DNA of 64,000 bases from Heteronotia binoei (Eukaryota), in the NCBI RefSeq assembly GCF_032191835.1, contig NC_083223.1, positions 221,154,001-221,218,000 on the forward strand, given 5' to 3'. Within the stretch, counting starts at the first letter, position 1; each line of letters begins with the position of its first letter. The position numbers were made by a program. This document shows, piece after piece, positions 52,701 through 58,700 of the stretch.

Positions 52701-55700
52701 GCGAGCGCCGGGGAGGAAGGCGGCGAGTGAGGGAGGGAGCATCCCTGCGCCTGCGCAGGGCCCCTGCGCACGCGCAGGGACGCTCCCTCCCTCACTCGCC
52801 GCCTTCCCCGCCCGCGCGCGGGGCCGGCAGCGGTGGCGGAGGCCTCTCCGCGGCCTCCGCTGGTCGCTGGAAGCCCTCCAGAGTCTCTGGAGGGCCTCCA
52901 GGGACCAGCGGAGGCCGCGGGGACGCCGCGGAGCACCCGGTGCTGGTCCCGGAAGGCCTTCCAGAGCCTCTGGAAGGCCTTCCGGGACCAGCGCCGACCA
53001 GCGAAGGCCTCCCCGCGGCTTCCGCTGGTCCCTGGAGGCCCTCCAGAGTCTCTGGAGGGCCTCCAGGGACCAGTGGAGGCCGCGGGGACGCGGCGGAGCA
53101 CCCGGCGCTGGTCCCGGAAGGCCTTCCAGAGCCTCTGGAAGGCCTTCCGGGACCAGCGCCGACCAGCGAAGGCCTCCCCGCGGCCTCCGCTGGTCCCTGG
53201 AGGCCCTCCAGAGTCTCTGGAGGGCCTCCAGGGACCAGCGGAGGCCGCGGGGACGCCGCGGAGCACCCGGCGCTGGTCCCGGAAGGCCTTCCAGAGCCTC
53301 TGTAAGGCCTTCCGGGACCAGCGCCGACCAGCGAAAGCCTCCCCGCGGCCTCCGCTGGTCCCTGGAGGCCCTCCAGAGTCTCTGGAGGGCCTCCAGGGAC
53401 CAGCGGAGGCCGCGGGGACGCCGCGGAGCACCCGGCGCTGGTCCCGGAAGGCCTTCCAGAGCCTCTGGAAGGCCTTCCGGGACCAGCGCCGACCAGCGAA
53501 GGCCTCCCCGCGGCCTCCGCTGGTCCCTGGAGGCCCTCCAGAGTCTCTGGAGGGCCTCCAGGGACCAGCGGAGGCCGCGGGGGACGCCGCGGAGCACCCG
53601 GCGCTGGTCCCGGAAGGCCTTCCAGAGCCTCTGGAAGGCGTTCCGGGACCACCGCCGACCAGTGGAGGCCGCGGAGAGGCCGCAGAGCAGCCGGCGCTGG
53701 TCCCTGGAGGCCTCCAGAGGCCAGCGCCGGCAGCTCCCTCCCTCCCTCGCCGCGAGGCCGCCGCCGCAGGACTCGCCGCCGCCGCTGGACTCTCCGCTGC
53801 CCTGGAAGCAGGTAAGGGGGCCGAAAGCGGGGGGCGGGNNNNNNNNNNNNNNNNNNNNNNNNNNNNNNNNNNNNNNNNNNNNNNNNNNNNNNNNNNNNNN
53901 NNNNNNNNNNNNNNNNNNNNNNNNNNNNNNNNNNNNNNNNNNNNNNNNNNNNNNNNNNNNNNNNNNNNNNNNNNNNNNNNNNNNNNNNNNNNNNNNNNNN
54001 NNNNNNNNNNNNNNNNNNNNNNNNNNNNNNNNNNNNNNNNNNNNNNNNNNNNNNNNNNNNNNNNNNNNNNNNNNNNNNNNNNNNNNNNNNNNNNNNNNNN
54101 NNNNNNNNNNNNNNNNNNNNNNNNNNNNNNNNNNNNNNNNNNNNNNNNNNNNNNNNNNNNNNNNNNNNNNNNNNNNNNNNNNNNNNNNNNNNNNNNNNNN
54201 NNNCCTTATGTTCTTATGTGACACAGAGTGTTGGACTGGAGGGGCCACTGGCCTGATCCAACAGGGCTTCTCTTATGTTCTTATGTGACACAGAGTGTTG
54301 GACTGGAGGGGCCACTGGCCTGATGCAACAGGGCTTCTCTTATATTTTTATGTGACACAGAGTGTTGGACTGGAGGGGCCACTGGCCTGATCCAACAGGG
54401 CTTCTCTTATGTTCTTATGTGACACAGAGTGTTGGACTGGAGGGGCCACTGGCCTGATCCAACAGGGCTTCTCTTATGTTCTTATGTGACACAGAGTGTT
54501 GGACTGGAGGGGCCACTGGCCTGATGCAACAGGGCTTCTCTTATATTTTTATGTGACACAGAGTGTTGGACTGGAGGGGCCACTGGCCTGATCCAACAGG
54601 GCTTCTCTTATGTTCTTATGTGACACAGAGTGTTGGACTGGAGGGGCCACTGGCCTGATCTAACAGGGCTTGTCTTATGTTCTTATGTGACCAGAGTGGT
54701 GGAGTGGATGAGCCATTCGTCTGATGCAACAGGGCTTCTCTTATATTTTTATGTGGCACAGAGTGTTGGACTGGAGGGGCCACTGGCCTGATCCAACAGG
54801 GCTTCTCTTATGTTCTTATGTGACACAGAGTGTTGGACTGGAGGGGCCACTGGCCTGATCTAACAGGGCTTCTCTTATGTTCTTATGTGACCAGAGTGGT
54901 GGAGTGGATGAGCCATTGGTCTGATGCAACAGGGCTTCTCTTATATTTTTATGTGGCACAGAGTGTTGGACTGGAGGGGCCATTGGTCTGATGCAACAGG
55001 GCTTCTCTTATATTTTTATGTGGCACAGAGTGTTGGACTGGAGGGGCCACTGGCCTGATGCAACAGGGCTTCTCTTATATTCTTATGTTACACAGAGTGT
55101 TGGACTGGAGGGCCACTGGCCTGATGCAACAGGGCTTCTCTTATGTTCTTATGTGACGCAGAGTGTTGGACTGGATGGGCCACTGGCCTGATCCAACAGG
55201 GCTTCTCTTATGTTCTTATGTGACAATACTGACTTTGGTGGACCCAAGCACTGATTCAGTGTAAGGGAGCTTTGTGTTTGTGACTGGAGTAGATAATACT
55301 GACTTTGGTGGACCCAAGCACTGATTCAGTGTAAGGGAGCTTTGTGTTTGTGTCTTCTGGTGCAATTTTGTTCTCAGATCCTGTATTTACTTCATCAGTA
55401 TATGGGATAAGGCACTTTCTCAACTGTGCTGCATAATGCAGCCTATTTATTTTGTCCTGTTGGCTCTGTTGGCTCTGTCTGCGCCACCTTCATCACTTTC
55501 GGGGTGTGGATCCCCCAGTGGGGTGGTCTCGTGACTCCCTCCGCCGGCTGTTTCTGATAGCCCTGCGCCCCCTCTTTCATTTGATATGTGTCCCGTGCGG
55601 GTGCCACCCTCCCGCCGGGAGATGCCGCAAAATGAGCCCCCTTGAGGCTTATGGCAGCAGGGCTCGGGGGAAGCGAGCTAGACTGCTGTTCTTTTGAGGG

Positions 55701-58700
55701 GTTATAGAGTGTTTCGAGCCCGTCCCTGTGGCATCGGTCCCATCGTTGTGGGGCCCAGGGGGCCGGCGCAGCGGCACGCTGAAGCAGCCTGTCGGTCACT
55801 TCCGGGTTCCTGTCCTGCATCTCGACCTGTGTTATTAGTGACAGGCTGCTTCGGCGTGCCGCTGCGCCGGCCCCCTGGGCCCCACAACGATGGGACTGAT
55901 GCCACAGGGACGGGCTCGAAACACTCTATAACCCCTCAAAAGAACAGCAGTCTAGCTCGCTTCCCCCGAGCCCTGCCGCCATAAGTCTCAAGGGGGCTCA
56001 TTTTGCGGCATCTCCCGGCGGGAGGGTGGCACCCGCACGGGACACATATCAAATGAAAGAGGGGGCGCAGGGCTATCAGAAACAGCCAGCGGAGGGAGTC
56101 GGGAGAGCACCCCACTGGGGGATCCACACCCCGAAAGTGATGAAGGTGGCGCAGATAGAGCCAACAGAGCAAACAGGACAAAATAAATAGGCTGCATTAT
56201 GCAGCACAGTTGAGAAAGTGCCTTATCCCATATACTGATGAAGTATATACAGGATTTCAGAACAAAATTGTTTCCGGCGGTGATATTTGGGGGATTTTTG
56301 GGGATGTCACAGGAAGTGCTGTGAAGTCACTTCCTGTTCCCGGCAGTGGCATTTGGGGGAAATGATGTCATTTGGGGGAAATGATGTCACAGGAAGTGAT
56401 GTCACTTCCCATTTCCGGCAGGTGACGCGGGGAAATGATGTCACAGGAAGTGATGTCACTTCCTGTTTCCTGTGGTGGCATGCCATCACCGGAAGTGCCG
56501 TCACCGGAAGTGACGTCACTTCCTGTTTCCGACGGCGCGCGCACACCCCTACCTTCCCCCCCCCCCCAACGTGTCCCTGGCTGGCCTTCAGACATTATGG
56601 TCACCCTAATAGGTCTACTGGGACATTGTGTTGTACCTTGAACCCCTGAGTGGTCAGAACTTCCGCAATCACTTGGCCAAACCACAAAGGGTAAGAAATA
56701 CATACTCAGAGAACTACATTGTTAAAGTATTTCTGCTTCAAGGTGTTAGAGACAATCTGTCCGCCTCCCCTGGCCCCTCCAGGATATGCATTTGGTTCCT
56801 TCTGTTTCAGCTCATTTCATTATTTCACTCTTCTCAAAGGGATTTTTCCTAATTTCATACATTTGCTTCCATCTTAGGAAATATCTACATTAACCATTCT
56901 TTTTTTTTTTGCCAGATACAGAGAGAAATCTATGTTAATTAAATTCATAATATTTTATTGATTTGTTTCCTGCAACTTTTAACCCATGTTCATCAAAGCT
57001 GGTTATGTATACCCTTGTCTAATTTGCTGCTTCTACAGAGACAAACCTGCACTTACCCATACATACAATGTCCTCAGTCAGACAATGCAAACCACTGCAG
57101 TGCAGTCTGAATCACAAGGAGATAGAGCTCTAATCAATGTGCTAGAGCTGAGTTGGCAAAAACAACAGCATGCAAAGCACAATAATGCATTGCCAGCTCA
57201 TGCAAACAGGAGAAGATTGTTGTGATACAAACACAGCTTTTCCTTTGCCACTATATGCACAATAATGTGCGCAGTGACTGCACAGAATTTTCAGCAGAGA
57301 GCTTCAAGGGGCAAGTATAATAATAGCCCAAGGGTTGTTGAATTCATGAAAGAATGTAGAAGTCAGTTTTCAAACTGAAAATCAGTCTTTGCGCAGCAAG
57401 AAAATAATTACGAATGACAGTCCATTCAATTACTGGTAACAGTAAAACTATTTCTATATGCAGGTATCTATTTCAGAACACAACTGAAAGCCTAATGGCA
57501 TGGTATGACACATTACTAAACTTATCCAGGATAATAAACATTCTAAATACCTTCCAAACCAAGAGTTTACATGAAGGATTGTGTGGTGTTAATACTTATT
57601 ATATCAGATTTTTCTCAATGCAGAGATATGCAAGGTCTCCTAGCACTCTTTATCAATAGGGTTGCCAATCCCCAGGTGGGGGCAGGGGATCCTCCAGTTT
57701 GGAGGCCCTTCCCACGCTTCAGGTTCATCAGAAAGTGTGGGGAGAGGAGGGAAATGTCTGCTGGACACTCCATTATTCCCTATGAAGCCTGATTCCCATA
57801 GGGTATAATGGAGAAGATCTGTGGGTATCTGGGGCTCTGGGGGGCTGTTTTTTGAGCGAGATGCACCAAATTTTCAACACAGCATCTGGTGCCTCTCCTC
57901 AAAACGATTGGAATGGGTGGGTCCAATTTTATGAGCCCCAAAAGAAGGTGCCCCTATCCTTCATTATTTCCAATTGGGAGAAGACATTTAAAAGGTGTGC
58001 AGTCCCTTTAAATGTGATGGCCACAACTCCCTTTGGAGTTCAACTGTGCTTGTCATGACCTTGCTCCTGGCTCCACCCCCTCCCCCAAGTCTCCTGGCTC
58101 CACCCCCAAAGTCCCCAGATATTTCTTGAATTGGACTTGGCAACCCTATTCATCAAACTGAATTAATTGTTCTGCTGGTATAACTTAACAGTTATCAGTA
58201 TAAAATTCTTGCTTGCTCGAACTAGCTCTTGACATGCCCTCTATAAAGCCACATATTTTTGATTACCCATTTGTGGTTCACTGCACAGAAGAAACACCCT
58301 TTCTGGCTATTTCCTTACAAATAGAAAGTATCATGGCTCAAAATAATATCTAATTATAGAAAATGATTGCGGGGTATAGTACACCACAAAAGGCCAATGA
58401 AAGAAACTCCTTGTTCATCTAAGAAGTTCTTGAGCTACCTCATCACCAGGCTGCAGATAACAGAAAAGCTGGATCTCATCCAATCTGGACACCTGCAGTG
58501 TCATTTTCCATGAACTTTAAAAGCCCACATGGTTTGTATTACAAATCTCTAATATGGAAATAACTCTCTATGAAAAAAATCGTGGGTGCCATTTCTTTTG
58601 AGAAAGGGCACCAGACAAAGAACAATCTAATAGCTGCTTAGAAAAGTTGCCATGGTTTGCTGTGGCATGGGCAATAACCTTACATCATACATGTTAAGTG

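What the first reader, a model, noticed from the sequence alone, without database searches (positions are those of the whole stretch)
55363..56270. 908-bp near-perfect inverted repeat in TTBK1 pre-mRNA
Seen: about 430-bp arms with few mismatches and a 46-nt spacer, transcribed as part of the 12.6-kb intron. Established: such hairpins form long dsRNA (ADAR editing, Dicer substrates) and are recombinogenic in DNA. Its survival suggests recent origin or arm-to-arm conversion. It may be an independent fold-back element, but I saw no TSD of its own.
Basis: partly seen in the sequence, partly recalled or inferred. Interest (0 to 1): 0.65.

Follow-up and report, generated by a model that had tools for sequence, protein, structure and literature searches.

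The report
Hairpin repeat inside a lizard transposon
The 908-base inverted repeat is real, but it is one of several palindromes inside a 4-kb non-coding "cut-and-paste" transposon that landed in an intron of a lizard or snake TTBK1 gene, which makes it an ordinary kind of genomic debris rather than a new kind of element.

Summary
The arms are 55363-55793 and 55840-56270: 431 nt each, 418/431 complementary, no indels, with a 46-nt spacer. The repeat lies in the 12,643-bp intron between two kinase-domain exons of a minus-strand TTBK1 gene. The window is squamate, not human.

The arm differences look like natural decay. There are 8 transitions and 5 transversions, and CpG positions are hit 7.7 times more often than others (p = 0.0013). 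This argues against an assembly artefact.

The repeat has no target-site duplication of its own. It sits inside a 4,035-bp element (52574-56608) bounded by a perfect 8-bp duplication (ATAGGTCT) and 11-bp terminal inverted repeats (TAGGGTGGCCA / TAGGGTGACCA). This is a hAT-type signature shared with a MITE family in the same window.

That element has no ORF with a family match and is a mosaic of tandem arrays and palindromes. A second family member (16566-17296, perfect 8-bp duplication) also carries internal palindromes.

The spacer carries the head of the repeat unit that resumes right after the right arm, so the inverted duplication arose locally, probably by fold-back or template switching.

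A 431-bp RNA hairpin in the pre-mRNA is predicted. Editing, small RNAs and genomic copy number could not be tested. Interest is low to moderate.

The parts
52566..52573 (.). Left copy of the 8-bp target-site duplication ATAGGTCT
   Evidence: Identical 8-mer at 56609-56616. It is the only hit outside the 165-bp array in the TSD8/TIR11 scan of 50000-59000, with 0 hits on average in 20 shuffles (flanks printed).
52574..56608 (.). Composite non-autonomous hAT-like DNA transposon, 4,035 bp as written. This includes a 365-N run whose true length is unknown.
   Evidence: TIRs TAGGGTGGCCA and TAGGGTGACCA match at 10/11, with a perfect 8-bp TSD. Its ends align with the two end types of the window's 0.5-kb MITE family (A2). 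No Pfam family matches any ORF of 70 aa or more inside it.
52697..52825 (.). 129-nt GC-rich palindrome (64+1+64, 89% complementary) near the left end
   Evidence: It folds as a plain hairpin, -77.4 kcal/mol, z = -13.
52836..53670 (.). 165-bp tandem array x5.1. Each unit is made of an 87-nt and a 59-nt near-perfect palindrome. It is CpG-island-like (GC 0.73-0.77, CpG o/e 0.6-0.83).
   Evidence: TRF, inverted repeats, folds, CpG profile.
53839..54203 (.). N run (365) inside the element. It was left unfilled.
54205..55225 (+). 67-bp tandem array x15.3 derived from the 3' tail of a CR1/L2-like LINE
   Evidence: TRF. Units match LINE 3' ends at 33899-33967, 8009-7940, 14152-14083 and 62593-62524 at 80-94%.
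55222..55355 (.). 70-bp direct repeat x2, directly left of the inverted repeat
   Evidence: (D3, 97%).
55363..55793 (.). Left arm of the inverted repeat (431 nt)
55794..55839 (.). 46-nt spacer. Its nt 2-24 are a head of the GTCACTTCC repeat unit. No source was found in the window for the rest of the spacer.
   Evidence: The 9-mer GTCACTTCC occurs 5 times in 64 kb, here and 4 times in the right-flank array. Spacer nt 2-20 are 89% identical to 56455-56473. Alignment A1.
55840..56270 (.). Right arm of the inverted repeat (431 nt)
56271..56540 (.). Array of 54-75-bp units with palindromic GGAAGTGA(T/C)GTCACTTCC cores. From memory these look like ETS and CRE sites. The array starts at about unit position 12, immediately after the right arm.
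   Evidence: (D2, I2-I4).
56598..56608 (-). Right terminal inverted repeat TAGGGTGACCA
56609..56616 (.). Right copy of the 8-bp target-site duplication ATAGGTCT
59732..59836 (-). TTBK1 kinase-domain exon upstream of the host intron (35 aa)
   Evidence: tblastn with named squamate, turtle and bird TTBK1 proteins gives 97-100% identity. Acceptor and donor sites verified.
47032..47088 (-). Start of the next TTBK1 exon. It runs into the N run 46881-47031.
   Evidence: 19 aa, 100%. Acceptor ...CCTAATAG| verified.

Best explanation
The 908-bp inverted repeat is a genuine genomic palindrome. It is an internal module of a roughly 4-kb non-autonomous hAT-type DNA transposon (52574-56608). That element inserted, with an 8-bp target duplication, into the 12.6-kb intron between two kinase-domain exons of TTBK1 in a squamate reptile. 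It belongs to a local family defined by TAGGGTKRCCA termini, whose larger members accumulate internal palindromes and tandem arrays. The 431-bp inverted copy arose inside this element by a local fold-back or template-switch event. One arm plus the 46-nt spacer is the original sequence. The other arm was synthesised from it and rejoined into the neighbouring GTCACTTCC-unit array. This probably happened during break or gap repair linked to transposition. The arms have since diverged by ordinary point mutation. Today it is most likely passive. Its one predictable activity is that, when the intron is transcribed, the two arms pair into a 431-bp dsRNA stem, which is a potential ADAR or Dicer substrate. 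Shown: the repeat, its context, the TSD/TIR boundary, the family relationship, the shared unit and the mutation spectrum. Inferred: the hAT transposase as mobiliser, the fold-back mechanism and its timing, and dsRNA formation in vivo.
For: (1) Boundary. In a scan of 50000-59000 for an exact 8-bp TSD next to an 11-bp TIR with at most 1 mismatch, there were 9 hits. Eight are trivial hits inside the palindromic 165-bp array. The ninth is 52574-56608 with ATAGGTCT. Twenty block shuffles gave 0 hits on average. (2) Family. TAGGGTGRCCA with at most 1 mismatch occurs 14 times in the window against 2.6 expected, and 0 of 100 shuffles reached 14. Pairing all 5 left and 9 right termini within 100-8000 bp gives 7 pairs by my count. 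Four of them have 8-bp flanks with 0, 0, 1 and 2 mismatches. Chance per pair is about 0.004 by my arithmetic. The composite's left and right ends align with the two different end types of the 0.5-kb MITE (A2). (3) An 8-bp TSD and short TIRs define hAT (PMC3517528, passages read). (4) No coding capacity. None of the 206 ORFs of 70 aa or more in the window matches a transposase family, and the 10 ORFs overlapping the repeat match no family at all. (5) Palindromes are a trait of the larger family members. The composite holds 129-nt, 87-nt, 59-nt and 908-nt palindromes. The 731-bp member 16566-17296 (perfect TSD CTCTAACG) holds an X-X'-X zig-zag with 77-nt and 149-nt arms. The two plain 0.5-kb copies have only 16-21-nt inverted repeats. 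(6) Local origin. GTCACTTCC occurs 5 times in 64 kb, once in the spacer and four times in the array that starts right after the right arm. Spacer nt 2-24 match a unit head and the right flank starts at about unit position 12. (7) Real, aged DNA. There are 13 substitutions and no indels, 8 transitions and 5 transversions. Six mismatches fall in the 48 CpG positions against 7 in the other 383 (odds ratio 7.7, Fisher p = 0.0013). (8) Hairpin. MFE is -926 kcal/mol, z = -56, on the transcribed strand. The intron position was verified by splice sites.
Against: Only one copy of the composite and of the arm could be examined, because no eukaryotic genome collection was available. Mobility of this exact element, and whether the palindrome predates the insertion, are therefore unproven. 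The TIR is short (11 bp, 1 mismatch). The TSD ATAGGTCT does not fit the Buster consensus nnnTAnnn quoted in PMC3517528. It fits only the T at position 2 of the Ac-type consensus as I recall it. No autonomous partner with a hAT transposase is in the window. A 365-N run lies inside the element, so its content is incomplete. The rest of the spacer has no identifiable source, and no diagnostic microhomology could be read at the junctions. Which arm is the copy, and the fold-back mechanism itself, stay inferred. Transcription, dsRNA, editing and small RNAs were not tested.
Confidence: 0.6

Rival explanations
1. The 908-bp unit is an independent fold-back or long-TIR MITE transposon that inserted on its own. 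It would be nested in the larger element, and its TSD would be lost or palindromic.
For: The structure (two long arms and a short loop) is what fold-back elements and hairpin MITEs look like. Positions 2-5 of each arm end read AATT, so a palindromic 4-bp duplication cannot be excluded from the sequence alone (and my reading).
Against: There is no direct repeat of 2-10 bp at the true arm ends (flanks ...TCTGGTG and TTTCCGG...). A self-complementary tetramer at that place has a 1 in 16 chance. The spacer carries the same unit as the right flank, and that 9-mer is otherwise absent from 64 kb. This would be a coincidence for an element that arrived from elsewhere. There is no other copy of the arm in the window. 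Translated arm ORFs found no relatives: 0 hits at E <= 0.001, and only 3 weak repeat-type hits.
Confidence: 0.12
2. Assembly artefact: an inverted duplication created by a chimeric or 'foldback' read or by mis-joining. Only one arm would exist in the animal.
For: The locus is hard to assemble. It holds tandem arrays on both sides and an N run 1.1 kb away. Palindromes are known to be troublesome for sequencing (PMC4057610, abstract seen in the listing).
Against: The arms differ at 13 sites by substitution only, with a transition and CpG bias typical of germline mutation. Artefactual copies should be identical or differ by random or indel errors. The spacer is 46 nt of locus-related sequence, namely a unit head. 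A second, older palindrome-bearing member of the same family lies 38 kb away.
Confidence: 0.05
3. The palindrome is a selected, functional hairpin-RNA gene, either an endo-siRNA or hpRNA precursor or a regulator of TTBK1 splicing or expression. In this reading it is kept similar by selection or arm-to-arm gene conversion.
For: The RNA hairpin is extremely stable on the transcribed strand. The arms keep a CpG o/e of 0.6 against 0.24 for the window.
Against: No Rfam family reaches its gathering score anywhere in the window, and the 8 sub-threshold matches near the repeat have E values from 0.37 to 4.5. Only 2 of the 13 mismatches are G:U-compatible on the transcribed strand, so there is no sign of structure-preserving change. 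The mismatch pattern is neutral-looking and shows no conversion tract or gradient. Both arms lie in one intron with no exon between them.
Confidence: 0.05
4. The inverted duplication formed after insertion by replication error in the host intron and is unrelated to transposon biology. The element would be merely the place where it happened.
For: Fold-back and template-switch events with a single-copy spacer are described for ordinary chromosomal DNA (PMC3907307, abstract read; PMC11724301 and PMC10766183, abstracts in the listing). Arm divergence (3%) and the perfect TSD are compatible with either order of events.
Against: Palindromes are concentrated in the two larger family members. Of the 13 inverted pairs with arms of 80 nt or more in the window, only one (27501/28802) lies outside them. 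This points to the element lineage rather than the host intron.
Confidence: 0.2

Closest known systems
Non-autonomous hAT elements and hAT MITEs (e.g. Mar and Vege of Drosophila willistoni, PMC3517528; maize Ds derivatives, recalled)
   Same: 8-bp TSD, 11-bp imperfect TIRs beginning YAGGG, no coding capacity, and an intronic location. Internally rearranged derivatives are usually explained by faulty gap repair after excision (recalled for Ac/Ds, not checked in a paper here).
   Different: It is about 4 kb instead of less than 1 kb. Its interior is a mosaic of CpG-rich palindromes, three unrelated tandem arrays and a LINE-tail array. No autonomous partner was seen. The subfamily (Ac or Buster) is undetermined.
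Tetris / DAIBAM of Drosophila virilis (PMC4079207, abstract read)
   Same: A large modular non-autonomous element shares only the tips of its TIRs with a MITE of the same genome, carries internal tandem repeats, and occurs in rearranged forms. This matches the relation seen here between the composite and the 0.5-kb MITE.
   Different: In Tetris the long inverted repeats are the termini (fold-back structure). Here the termini are 11 bp and the long inverted repeat is internal. The host clades are unrelated, and the superfamily of Tetris was not compared.
Fold-back elements and Galileo (PMC3688188, PMC4168063; abstracts in the listing)
   Same: Long inverted arms of hundreds of bp, close together, associated with tandem sub-repeats.
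   Different: Their long arms are the transposon ends, flanked by a TSD and bound by a transposase. The 908-bp repeat has neither a TSD nor sub-repeats in its arms, and no other copies were found.
Fold-back inverted duplications and templated inverted insertions at breaks (PMC3907307, abstract read; PMC11724301, abstract in the listing)
   Same: The architecture is the same: original copy, then a single-copy spacer that corresponds to the fold-back loop, then the inverted copy.
   Different: The scale differs: 431 bp with a 46-nt spacer, against megabase duplications with kb spacers or 5-34-bp insertions. The short inverted microhomology expected at the spacer boundary cannot be read from the finished product.
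Intronic inverted repeat pairs as dsRNA sources (inverted Alu pairs edited by ADAR; Drosophila hpRNA loci). Recalled, not checked in a paper here.
   Same: Two inverted copies in one transcript are predicted to form a long nuclear dsRNA.
   Different: No editing or small-RNA evidence is available. At 431 bp and 97%, the stem is longer and cleaner than a typical diverged TE pair.

Membership tests
hAT superfamily (non-autonomous member) | 8-bp target-site duplication | tested here: met
   ATAGGTCT at 52566-52573 and 56609-56616, 8/8. Three other elements with the same termini have 8-bp flanks matching 8/8, 7/8 and 6/8. Definition from PMC3517528.
hAT superfamily (non-autonomous member) | Short terminal inverted repeats (5-27 bp), typically starting YARNG (the motif is recalled) | tested here: met
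   TAGGGTGGCCA and TAGGGTGACCA, 10/11. Length range from PMC3517528.
hAT superfamily (non-autonomous member) | Mobilised by a hAT transposase (BED finger, DDE, hAT dimerisation domain) encoded by an autonomous relative with matching ends | not testable with these tools
   None of the 206 ORFs of 70 aa or more in the window matches a transposase family. The rest of the genome is not available.
hAT superfamily (non-autonomous member) | TSD consensus of a subfamily (Buster nnnTAnnn; Ac nTnnnnAn, recalled) | tested here: inconclusive
   ATAGGTCT does not fit Buster (PMC3517528) and fits Ac only at position 2. One site cannot decide.
Fold-back transposon / long-TIR MITE (for the 908-bp unit alone) | TSD directly flanking the outer ends of the long arms | tested here: not met
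   The flanks ...TCTGGTG and TTTCCGG... show no direct repeat of 2-10 bp. Only a trivial palindromic AATT inside the arm ends could serve.
Fold-back transposon / long-TIR MITE (for the 908-bp unit alone) | Multiple dispersed copies | tested here: inconclusive
   There is no other copy in 64 kb, and translated searches found nothing convincing. Genome-wide copy number is not testable here.
Fold-back (intrastrand) inverted duplication | Inverted copy separated from the original by a single-copy spacer, with all parts of local origin | tested here: met
   The spacer is 46 nt and single-copy, and its head is shared with the adjoining array. Model from PMC3907307 (abstract).
Fold-back (intrastrand) inverted duplication | Short inverted microhomology at the spacer/duplication boundary | tested here: inconclusive
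   Pairing does not extend into the spacer. Any priming microhomology would now be part of the arms.
dsRNA substrate (ADAR editing / endo-siRNA precursor) | Long intramolecular duplex in a transcribed RNA | tested here: met
   The predicted stem has 431 positions (418 Watson-Crick pairs plus 2 G:U) on the minus (gene-sense) strand, MFE -926 kcal/mol. Intron position shown. Transcription itself is assumed.
dsRNA substrate (ADAR editing / endo-siRNA precursor) | A-to-I changes or 21-24-nt RNAs mapping to the arms | not testable with these tools
   No RNA data are available.
Known structured RNA families (Rfam 15) | Match at gathering score | tested here: not met
   There are 0 matches in the whole window. 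Eight sub-threshold matches in 54204-57500 all lie far below their cut-offs.

The most novel reading that the evidence does not exclude
This hAT-like family may build long internal hairpins systematically. Both of the two larger members among the 4 complete copies in 64 kb carry them. Because such copies sit in introns of expressed genes, they would act as hairpin-RNA generators. Their small RNAs or dsRNA would feed back on the family, giving transposon self-taming, or would mark host transcripts such as TTBK1 for editing. That would make the palindromes a functional and possibly selected trait of the element rather than repair scars.
Probability: 0.06. Interest if true: 0.65.

Novelty: new member of a known kind. 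Interest (0 to 1): 0.3.

Why it matters
The finding changes what the feature is. It is not a free-standing fold-back element or a puzzle of palindrome survival. It is an internal repair scar in a TSD-bounded, non-coding hAT-type transposon of a squamate genome.

That gives testable predictions: an empty site with a single ATAGGTCT in relatives, other family members with related palindromes, and an autonomous partner with TAGGGTKRCCA ends.

It also gives a small natural series for studying how cut-and-paste elements grow palindromes and satellites. The series runs from 0.5-kb MITEs through a 731-bp member with a zig-zag palindrome to a 4-kb mosaic.

For the host gene, the practical point is that TTBK1 pre-mRNA in this species should contain a 431-bp near-perfect duplex. 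This is worth a look in brain RNA-seq for hyper-editing, but nothing here shows that it matters to the animal.

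Tried and rejected
- Rfam over the whole window at gathering score gave nothing. A permissive search around the repeat gave only chance-level hits with E from 0.37 to 4.5.
- ARAGORN on 52000-58500 found no tRNA-like, SINE-type core.
- Pfam on all 206 ORFs of 70 aa or more found nothing in or near the repeat. The hits elsewhere were LINE domains, one kinase exon and four sub-threshold chance hits.
- A list of 603 shorter minus-strand ORFs was made but not used, because tblastn with reference proteins mapped the exons instead.
- Translated arm ORFs were searched against protein collections as a proxy for copy number. The 86-aa ORF gave 0 hits at E <= 0.001 from 2 candidates.
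- The 160-aa ORF against 1.84 billion representatives gave 3 hits at E 6e-6 to 5e-5. They match short stretches of internally repetitive proteins. P0124 has a 20-aa repeat sharing a PSLWH.SHR.G motif. I judged these uninformative and did not follow them up.
- A separate TSD for the 908-bp unit was not found.
- A source for the remainder of the spacer was not found in the window.
- The idea that the GC-rich nested palindrome 52697-52825 is a parvovirus-like T-shaped terminal hairpin was rejected. It folds as one plain hairpin, and no parvoviral protein domain appears among the 206 ORFs.
- A literature search for the terminal 11-mer found 48 papers. The 10 listed are unrelated, apparently primer sequences.
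- A keyword search for squamate hAT MITEs found 512 papers. None of the 15 listed describes this family.
- One fold request was over the size limit and was re-sent with shorter pieces.
- Structure prediction, complex prediction and the atlas search were not used, because no protein is involved.

Full report
**Observation**

The arms are 55363-55793 and 55840-56270, 431 nt each, 46 nt apart, 97% complementary. A base-by-base comparison gives 13 mismatches and no indels. Pairing stops abruptly at both outer ends and does not extend into the spacer.

Folded as RNA on the minus strand, the MFE is -926.4 kcal/mol against -335.5 +/- 10.5 for 20 dinucleotide shuffles (z = -56). It is the longest of the 13 inverted pairs with arms of 80 nt or more in the window. 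No third copy of the arm is present in the 64 kb.

**Organism and gene**

The window has three N runs: 29513-29676, 46881-47031 and 53839-54203. I left them as they are.

A Pfam scan of all 206 stop-to-stop ORFs of 70 aa or more found a protein-kinase exon on the minus strand at about 61.2 kb. It also found LINE pieces, including a 551-aa EN/RT ORF preceded by a GDSL-esterase ORF at 30.4-33.7 kb.

The clean 47-aa exon (61136-61276, minus) was searched on its own. It found 2,052 proteins at E <= 1e-10 among 2,140 candidates. Every hit that carries a gene name is tau-tubulin kinase 1.

With nine named reptile and bird TTBK1 proteins, tblastn maps minus-strand exons at these positions:
- 61276-61136
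- 59836-59732
- 47088-47032 (running into an N run)
- 37.7, 35.2, 26.9, 25.2 and 21.9 kb
- 4.4 kb, found with only two of the references

On the 191-aa variable exon, identity is highest to the anguid lizard Elgaria (93.7%). Phrynosoma follows at 90.5%, Naja at 89.9%, a pigeon at 87.4% and turtles at about 78%. Together with the intact CR1/L2-type LINE, this makes the window squamate. I do not take it for human.

The exons were searched and compared one by one.

The GT and AG sites of the two exons flanking the repeat are in place. The intron is 47089-59731, which is 12,643 bp.

**Is the repeat real DNA?**

The 13 arm differences are 8 transitions and 5 transversions. Six of them fall in the 48 positions that are part of a CpG in either arm, against 7 in the other 383 positions (odds ratio 7.7, Fisher p = 0.0013).

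This is the spectrum of germline decay in a methylated vertebrate genome. It is not the spectrum of an assembler copying one arm. The spacer is also locus-related sequence (see below). I put the artefact reading at about 5%; only reads can settle it.

Taking a substitution rate of the order of 1e-9 per site per year (recalled, not from a tool), the non-CpG divergence of 7/383 puts the duplication roughly ten million years back. It is neither very recent nor in need of gene conversion. The mismatches show no significant gradient (9 in the outer half, 4 in the inner half, p = 0.27).

**What surrounds the repeat**

The repeat is embedded in a 4-kb block that differs from the rest of the intron. 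From left to right the block holds:
- a 129-nt GC-rich palindrome (52697-52825)
- a 165-bp tandem array x5.1 (52836-53670), whose unit is itself an 87-nt plus a 59-nt near-perfect palindrome, with CpG o/e 0.6-0.83 against 0.24 for the window
- the 365-N run
- a 67-bp array x15.3 (54205-55225)
- a 70-bp repeat x2
- the 908-bp repeat
- an array of 54-75-bp units with palindromic GGAAGTGA(T/C)GTCACTTCC cores (56271-56540)

The 67-bp unit is the 3' tail of the window's LINE family. It matches the ends of four LINE copies at 80-94%.

**The boundary: a hAT-type element**

At the edges of this block the sequence reads ATAGGTCT|TAGGGTGGCCA... on the left (52566-52584) and ...TGGTCACCCTA|ATAGGTCT on the right (56598-56616). 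This is a perfect 8-bp direct repeat flanking 11-bp terminal inverted repeats that match at 10 of 11 positions.

A systematic scan of 50000-59000 for an exact 8-bp TSD next to an 11-bp TIR with at most 1 mismatch returned 9 hits. Eight are trivial hits inside the palindromic 165-bp array. The ninth is this pair. Twenty block shuffles gave none.

The terminal motif is not private to this element. TAGGGTGRCCA with at most one mismatch occurs 14 times in the window against 2.6 expected, and 0 of 100 shuffles reached 14.

Pairing all 5 left-facing and 9 right-facing termini that lie 100-8000 bp apart gives 7 pairs by my count. Four of them have 8-bp flanks that match:
- 52574-56608: 8/8
- 16566-17296: 8/8 (CTCTAACG)
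- 57657-58148: 7/8
- 2802-3309: 6/8

The last two are copies of a 0.5-kb MITE, 82.6% identical to each other. The composite's left and right ends align with the two different end types of that MITE (alignment A2).

An 8-bp TSD with short TIRs is the definition of hAT elements (PMC3517528, passages read). No ORF in the window matches a transposase family. The element is therefore a non-autonomous hAT-type transposon whose partner is elsewhere.

Its length as written is 4,035 bp. This includes the N run, so the true length is unknown.

**The repeat is not an independent element**

No direct repeat of 2-10 bp flanks the arms. The only candidate is the palindromic AATT inside the arm tips, which has a 1 in 16 chance of being there.

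More telling is the 9-mer GTCACTTCC. It occurs five times in 64 kb: once at the start of the spacer (55795) and four times in the array that begins right after the right arm. Spacer nt 2-24 align with the head of an array unit (nt 2-20 are 89% identical to 56455-56473). The flank after the right arm starts at about unit position 12.

An element arriving from elsewhere would not carry in its loop the repeat unit of its target. The inverted copy was therefore made in place, within this element or its lineage.

The architecture is copy, single-copy spacer, inverted copy. This is the architecture of fold-back or template-switch duplication (PMC3907307, abstract; PMC11724301 and PMC10766183, abstracts in the listing).

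I cannot tell which arm is the original. I found no source for the remainder of the spacer.

**Palindromes as a trait of the family**

The 731-bp member 16566-17296 has a perfect TSD. It carries three alternating copies (X-X'-X) of a GC-rich segment, forming palindromes with 77-nt and 149-nt arms and 1-nt and 3-nt spacers at 87% complementarity. The two plain 0.5-kb MITE copies have only 16-21-nt inverted repeats.

Of the 13 long inverted pairs in the window, only one (27501/28802) lies outside these two elements. This links palindrome formation to the element lineage.

From what I recall of Ac/Ds derivatives formed by abortive gap repair after excision, transposition-associated repair is the most likely setting. 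That is an inference. A post-insertion replication error in the host intron remains a fair rival (about 20%).

A close parallel in print is Tetris/DAIBAM in Drosophila virilis. There, a modular non-autonomous element with internal tandem repeats shares only its TIR tips with a MITE (PMC4079207, abstract).

**Function**

Nothing indicates a selected function:
- No Rfam family reaches threshold.
- No tRNA-like core was found.
- No protein family matches.
- Searches with translated arm ORFs found no convincing relatives (none; three weak repeat-type hits, inspected).

Only 2 of the 13 mismatches are G:U-compatible on the transcribed strand.

What can be said is structural. If the intron is transcribed, a 431-bp stem with a 101-bp perfect run will form. 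Such duplexes are substrates for ADAR and Dicer (recalled knowledge).

At the DNA level, the 46-nt spacer and 3% divergence should lower hairpin and cruciform fragility relative to a perfect palindrome. Spacer distance and divergence are reported to be inversely related to rearrangement potential (PMC10164571, abstract in the listing).

**What stayed unchecked**

- Genome-wide copy number, orthologous empty sites, raw reads, RNA editing and small RNAs.
- The content of the N run inside the element.
- Supplementary files of papers were not consulted, and none bears on a claim made here.

**Verdict**

The feature is a new member of a known kind: an internal fold-back duplication in a non-autonomous hAT-type transposon. 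Interest is low to moderate.

Noticed in passing
window 2802-3309, 57657-58148, plus unpaired termini at 897, 6098, 10369, 18190, 28502, 38590: A hAT-type MITE family of about 0.5 kb with TAGGGTTGCCA termini, two different end types, 22-bp subterminal repeats (GGGGACTTTGGGGGTGGAGCCA) and 8-bp TSD-like flanks. There are 11 such termini in 64 kb.
   Followed up: partly
window 16566-17296: A 731-bp member of the same family with a perfect 8-bp TSD (CTCTAACG). Its interior is an X-X'-X zig-zag of a GC-rich segment, forming palindromes with 77-nt and 149-nt arms and 1-nt and 3-nt spacers. It lies in another TTBK1 intron.
   Followed up: partly
window 54205-55225: The last 67 bp of a CR1/L2-like LINE (3' tail ending in TTCTTATG repeats) is amplified head-to-tail 15.3 times. 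The array's left edge is hidden by the N run.
   Followed up: partly
window 30396-33709 (+): A LINE with a GDSL-esterase ORF followed by a 551-aa open EN/RT ORF (RVT_1 E = 6e-28). It is probably a young CR1/L2-type copy lying antisense in a TTBK1 intron. Further RT fragments lie at 10679-11110 (+) and 63430-63828 (-).
   Followed up: no
window 52600-53838: A CpG-island-like stretch (GC 0.72-0.77, CpG o/e 0.6-0.83) made of nested palindromes. It ends in a plus-strand sequence that looks like a 5'UTR exon with a splice donor (GGAAGCAG|GTAAGG at about 53806), just before the N run. It may be a captured promoter or first exon, or an antisense transcription start.
   Followed up: no
window 56300-56530: An array of palindromic GGAAGTGA(T/C)GTCACTTCC motifs, including the only TGACGTCA in this region (56511). 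From memory these look like ETS and CRE sites and could act as a bidirectional promoter. A plus-strand GGTAAG donor-like site follows at about 56690.
   Followed up: no
window 46881-47088: The TTBK1 exon that starts at 47088 (minus strand) is cut off by the N run 46881-47031, so about two residues of the reference proteins are unaccounted for. It was not filled.
   Followed up: no
window 55857-55925 (-), protein P0124: The translated inner end of the right arm shares a PSLWH.SHR.G motif with a 20-aa tandem repeat in an unnamed 295-aa database protein (E = 5e-5). This is probably chance or a translated repeat and remains unexplained.
   Followed up: partly
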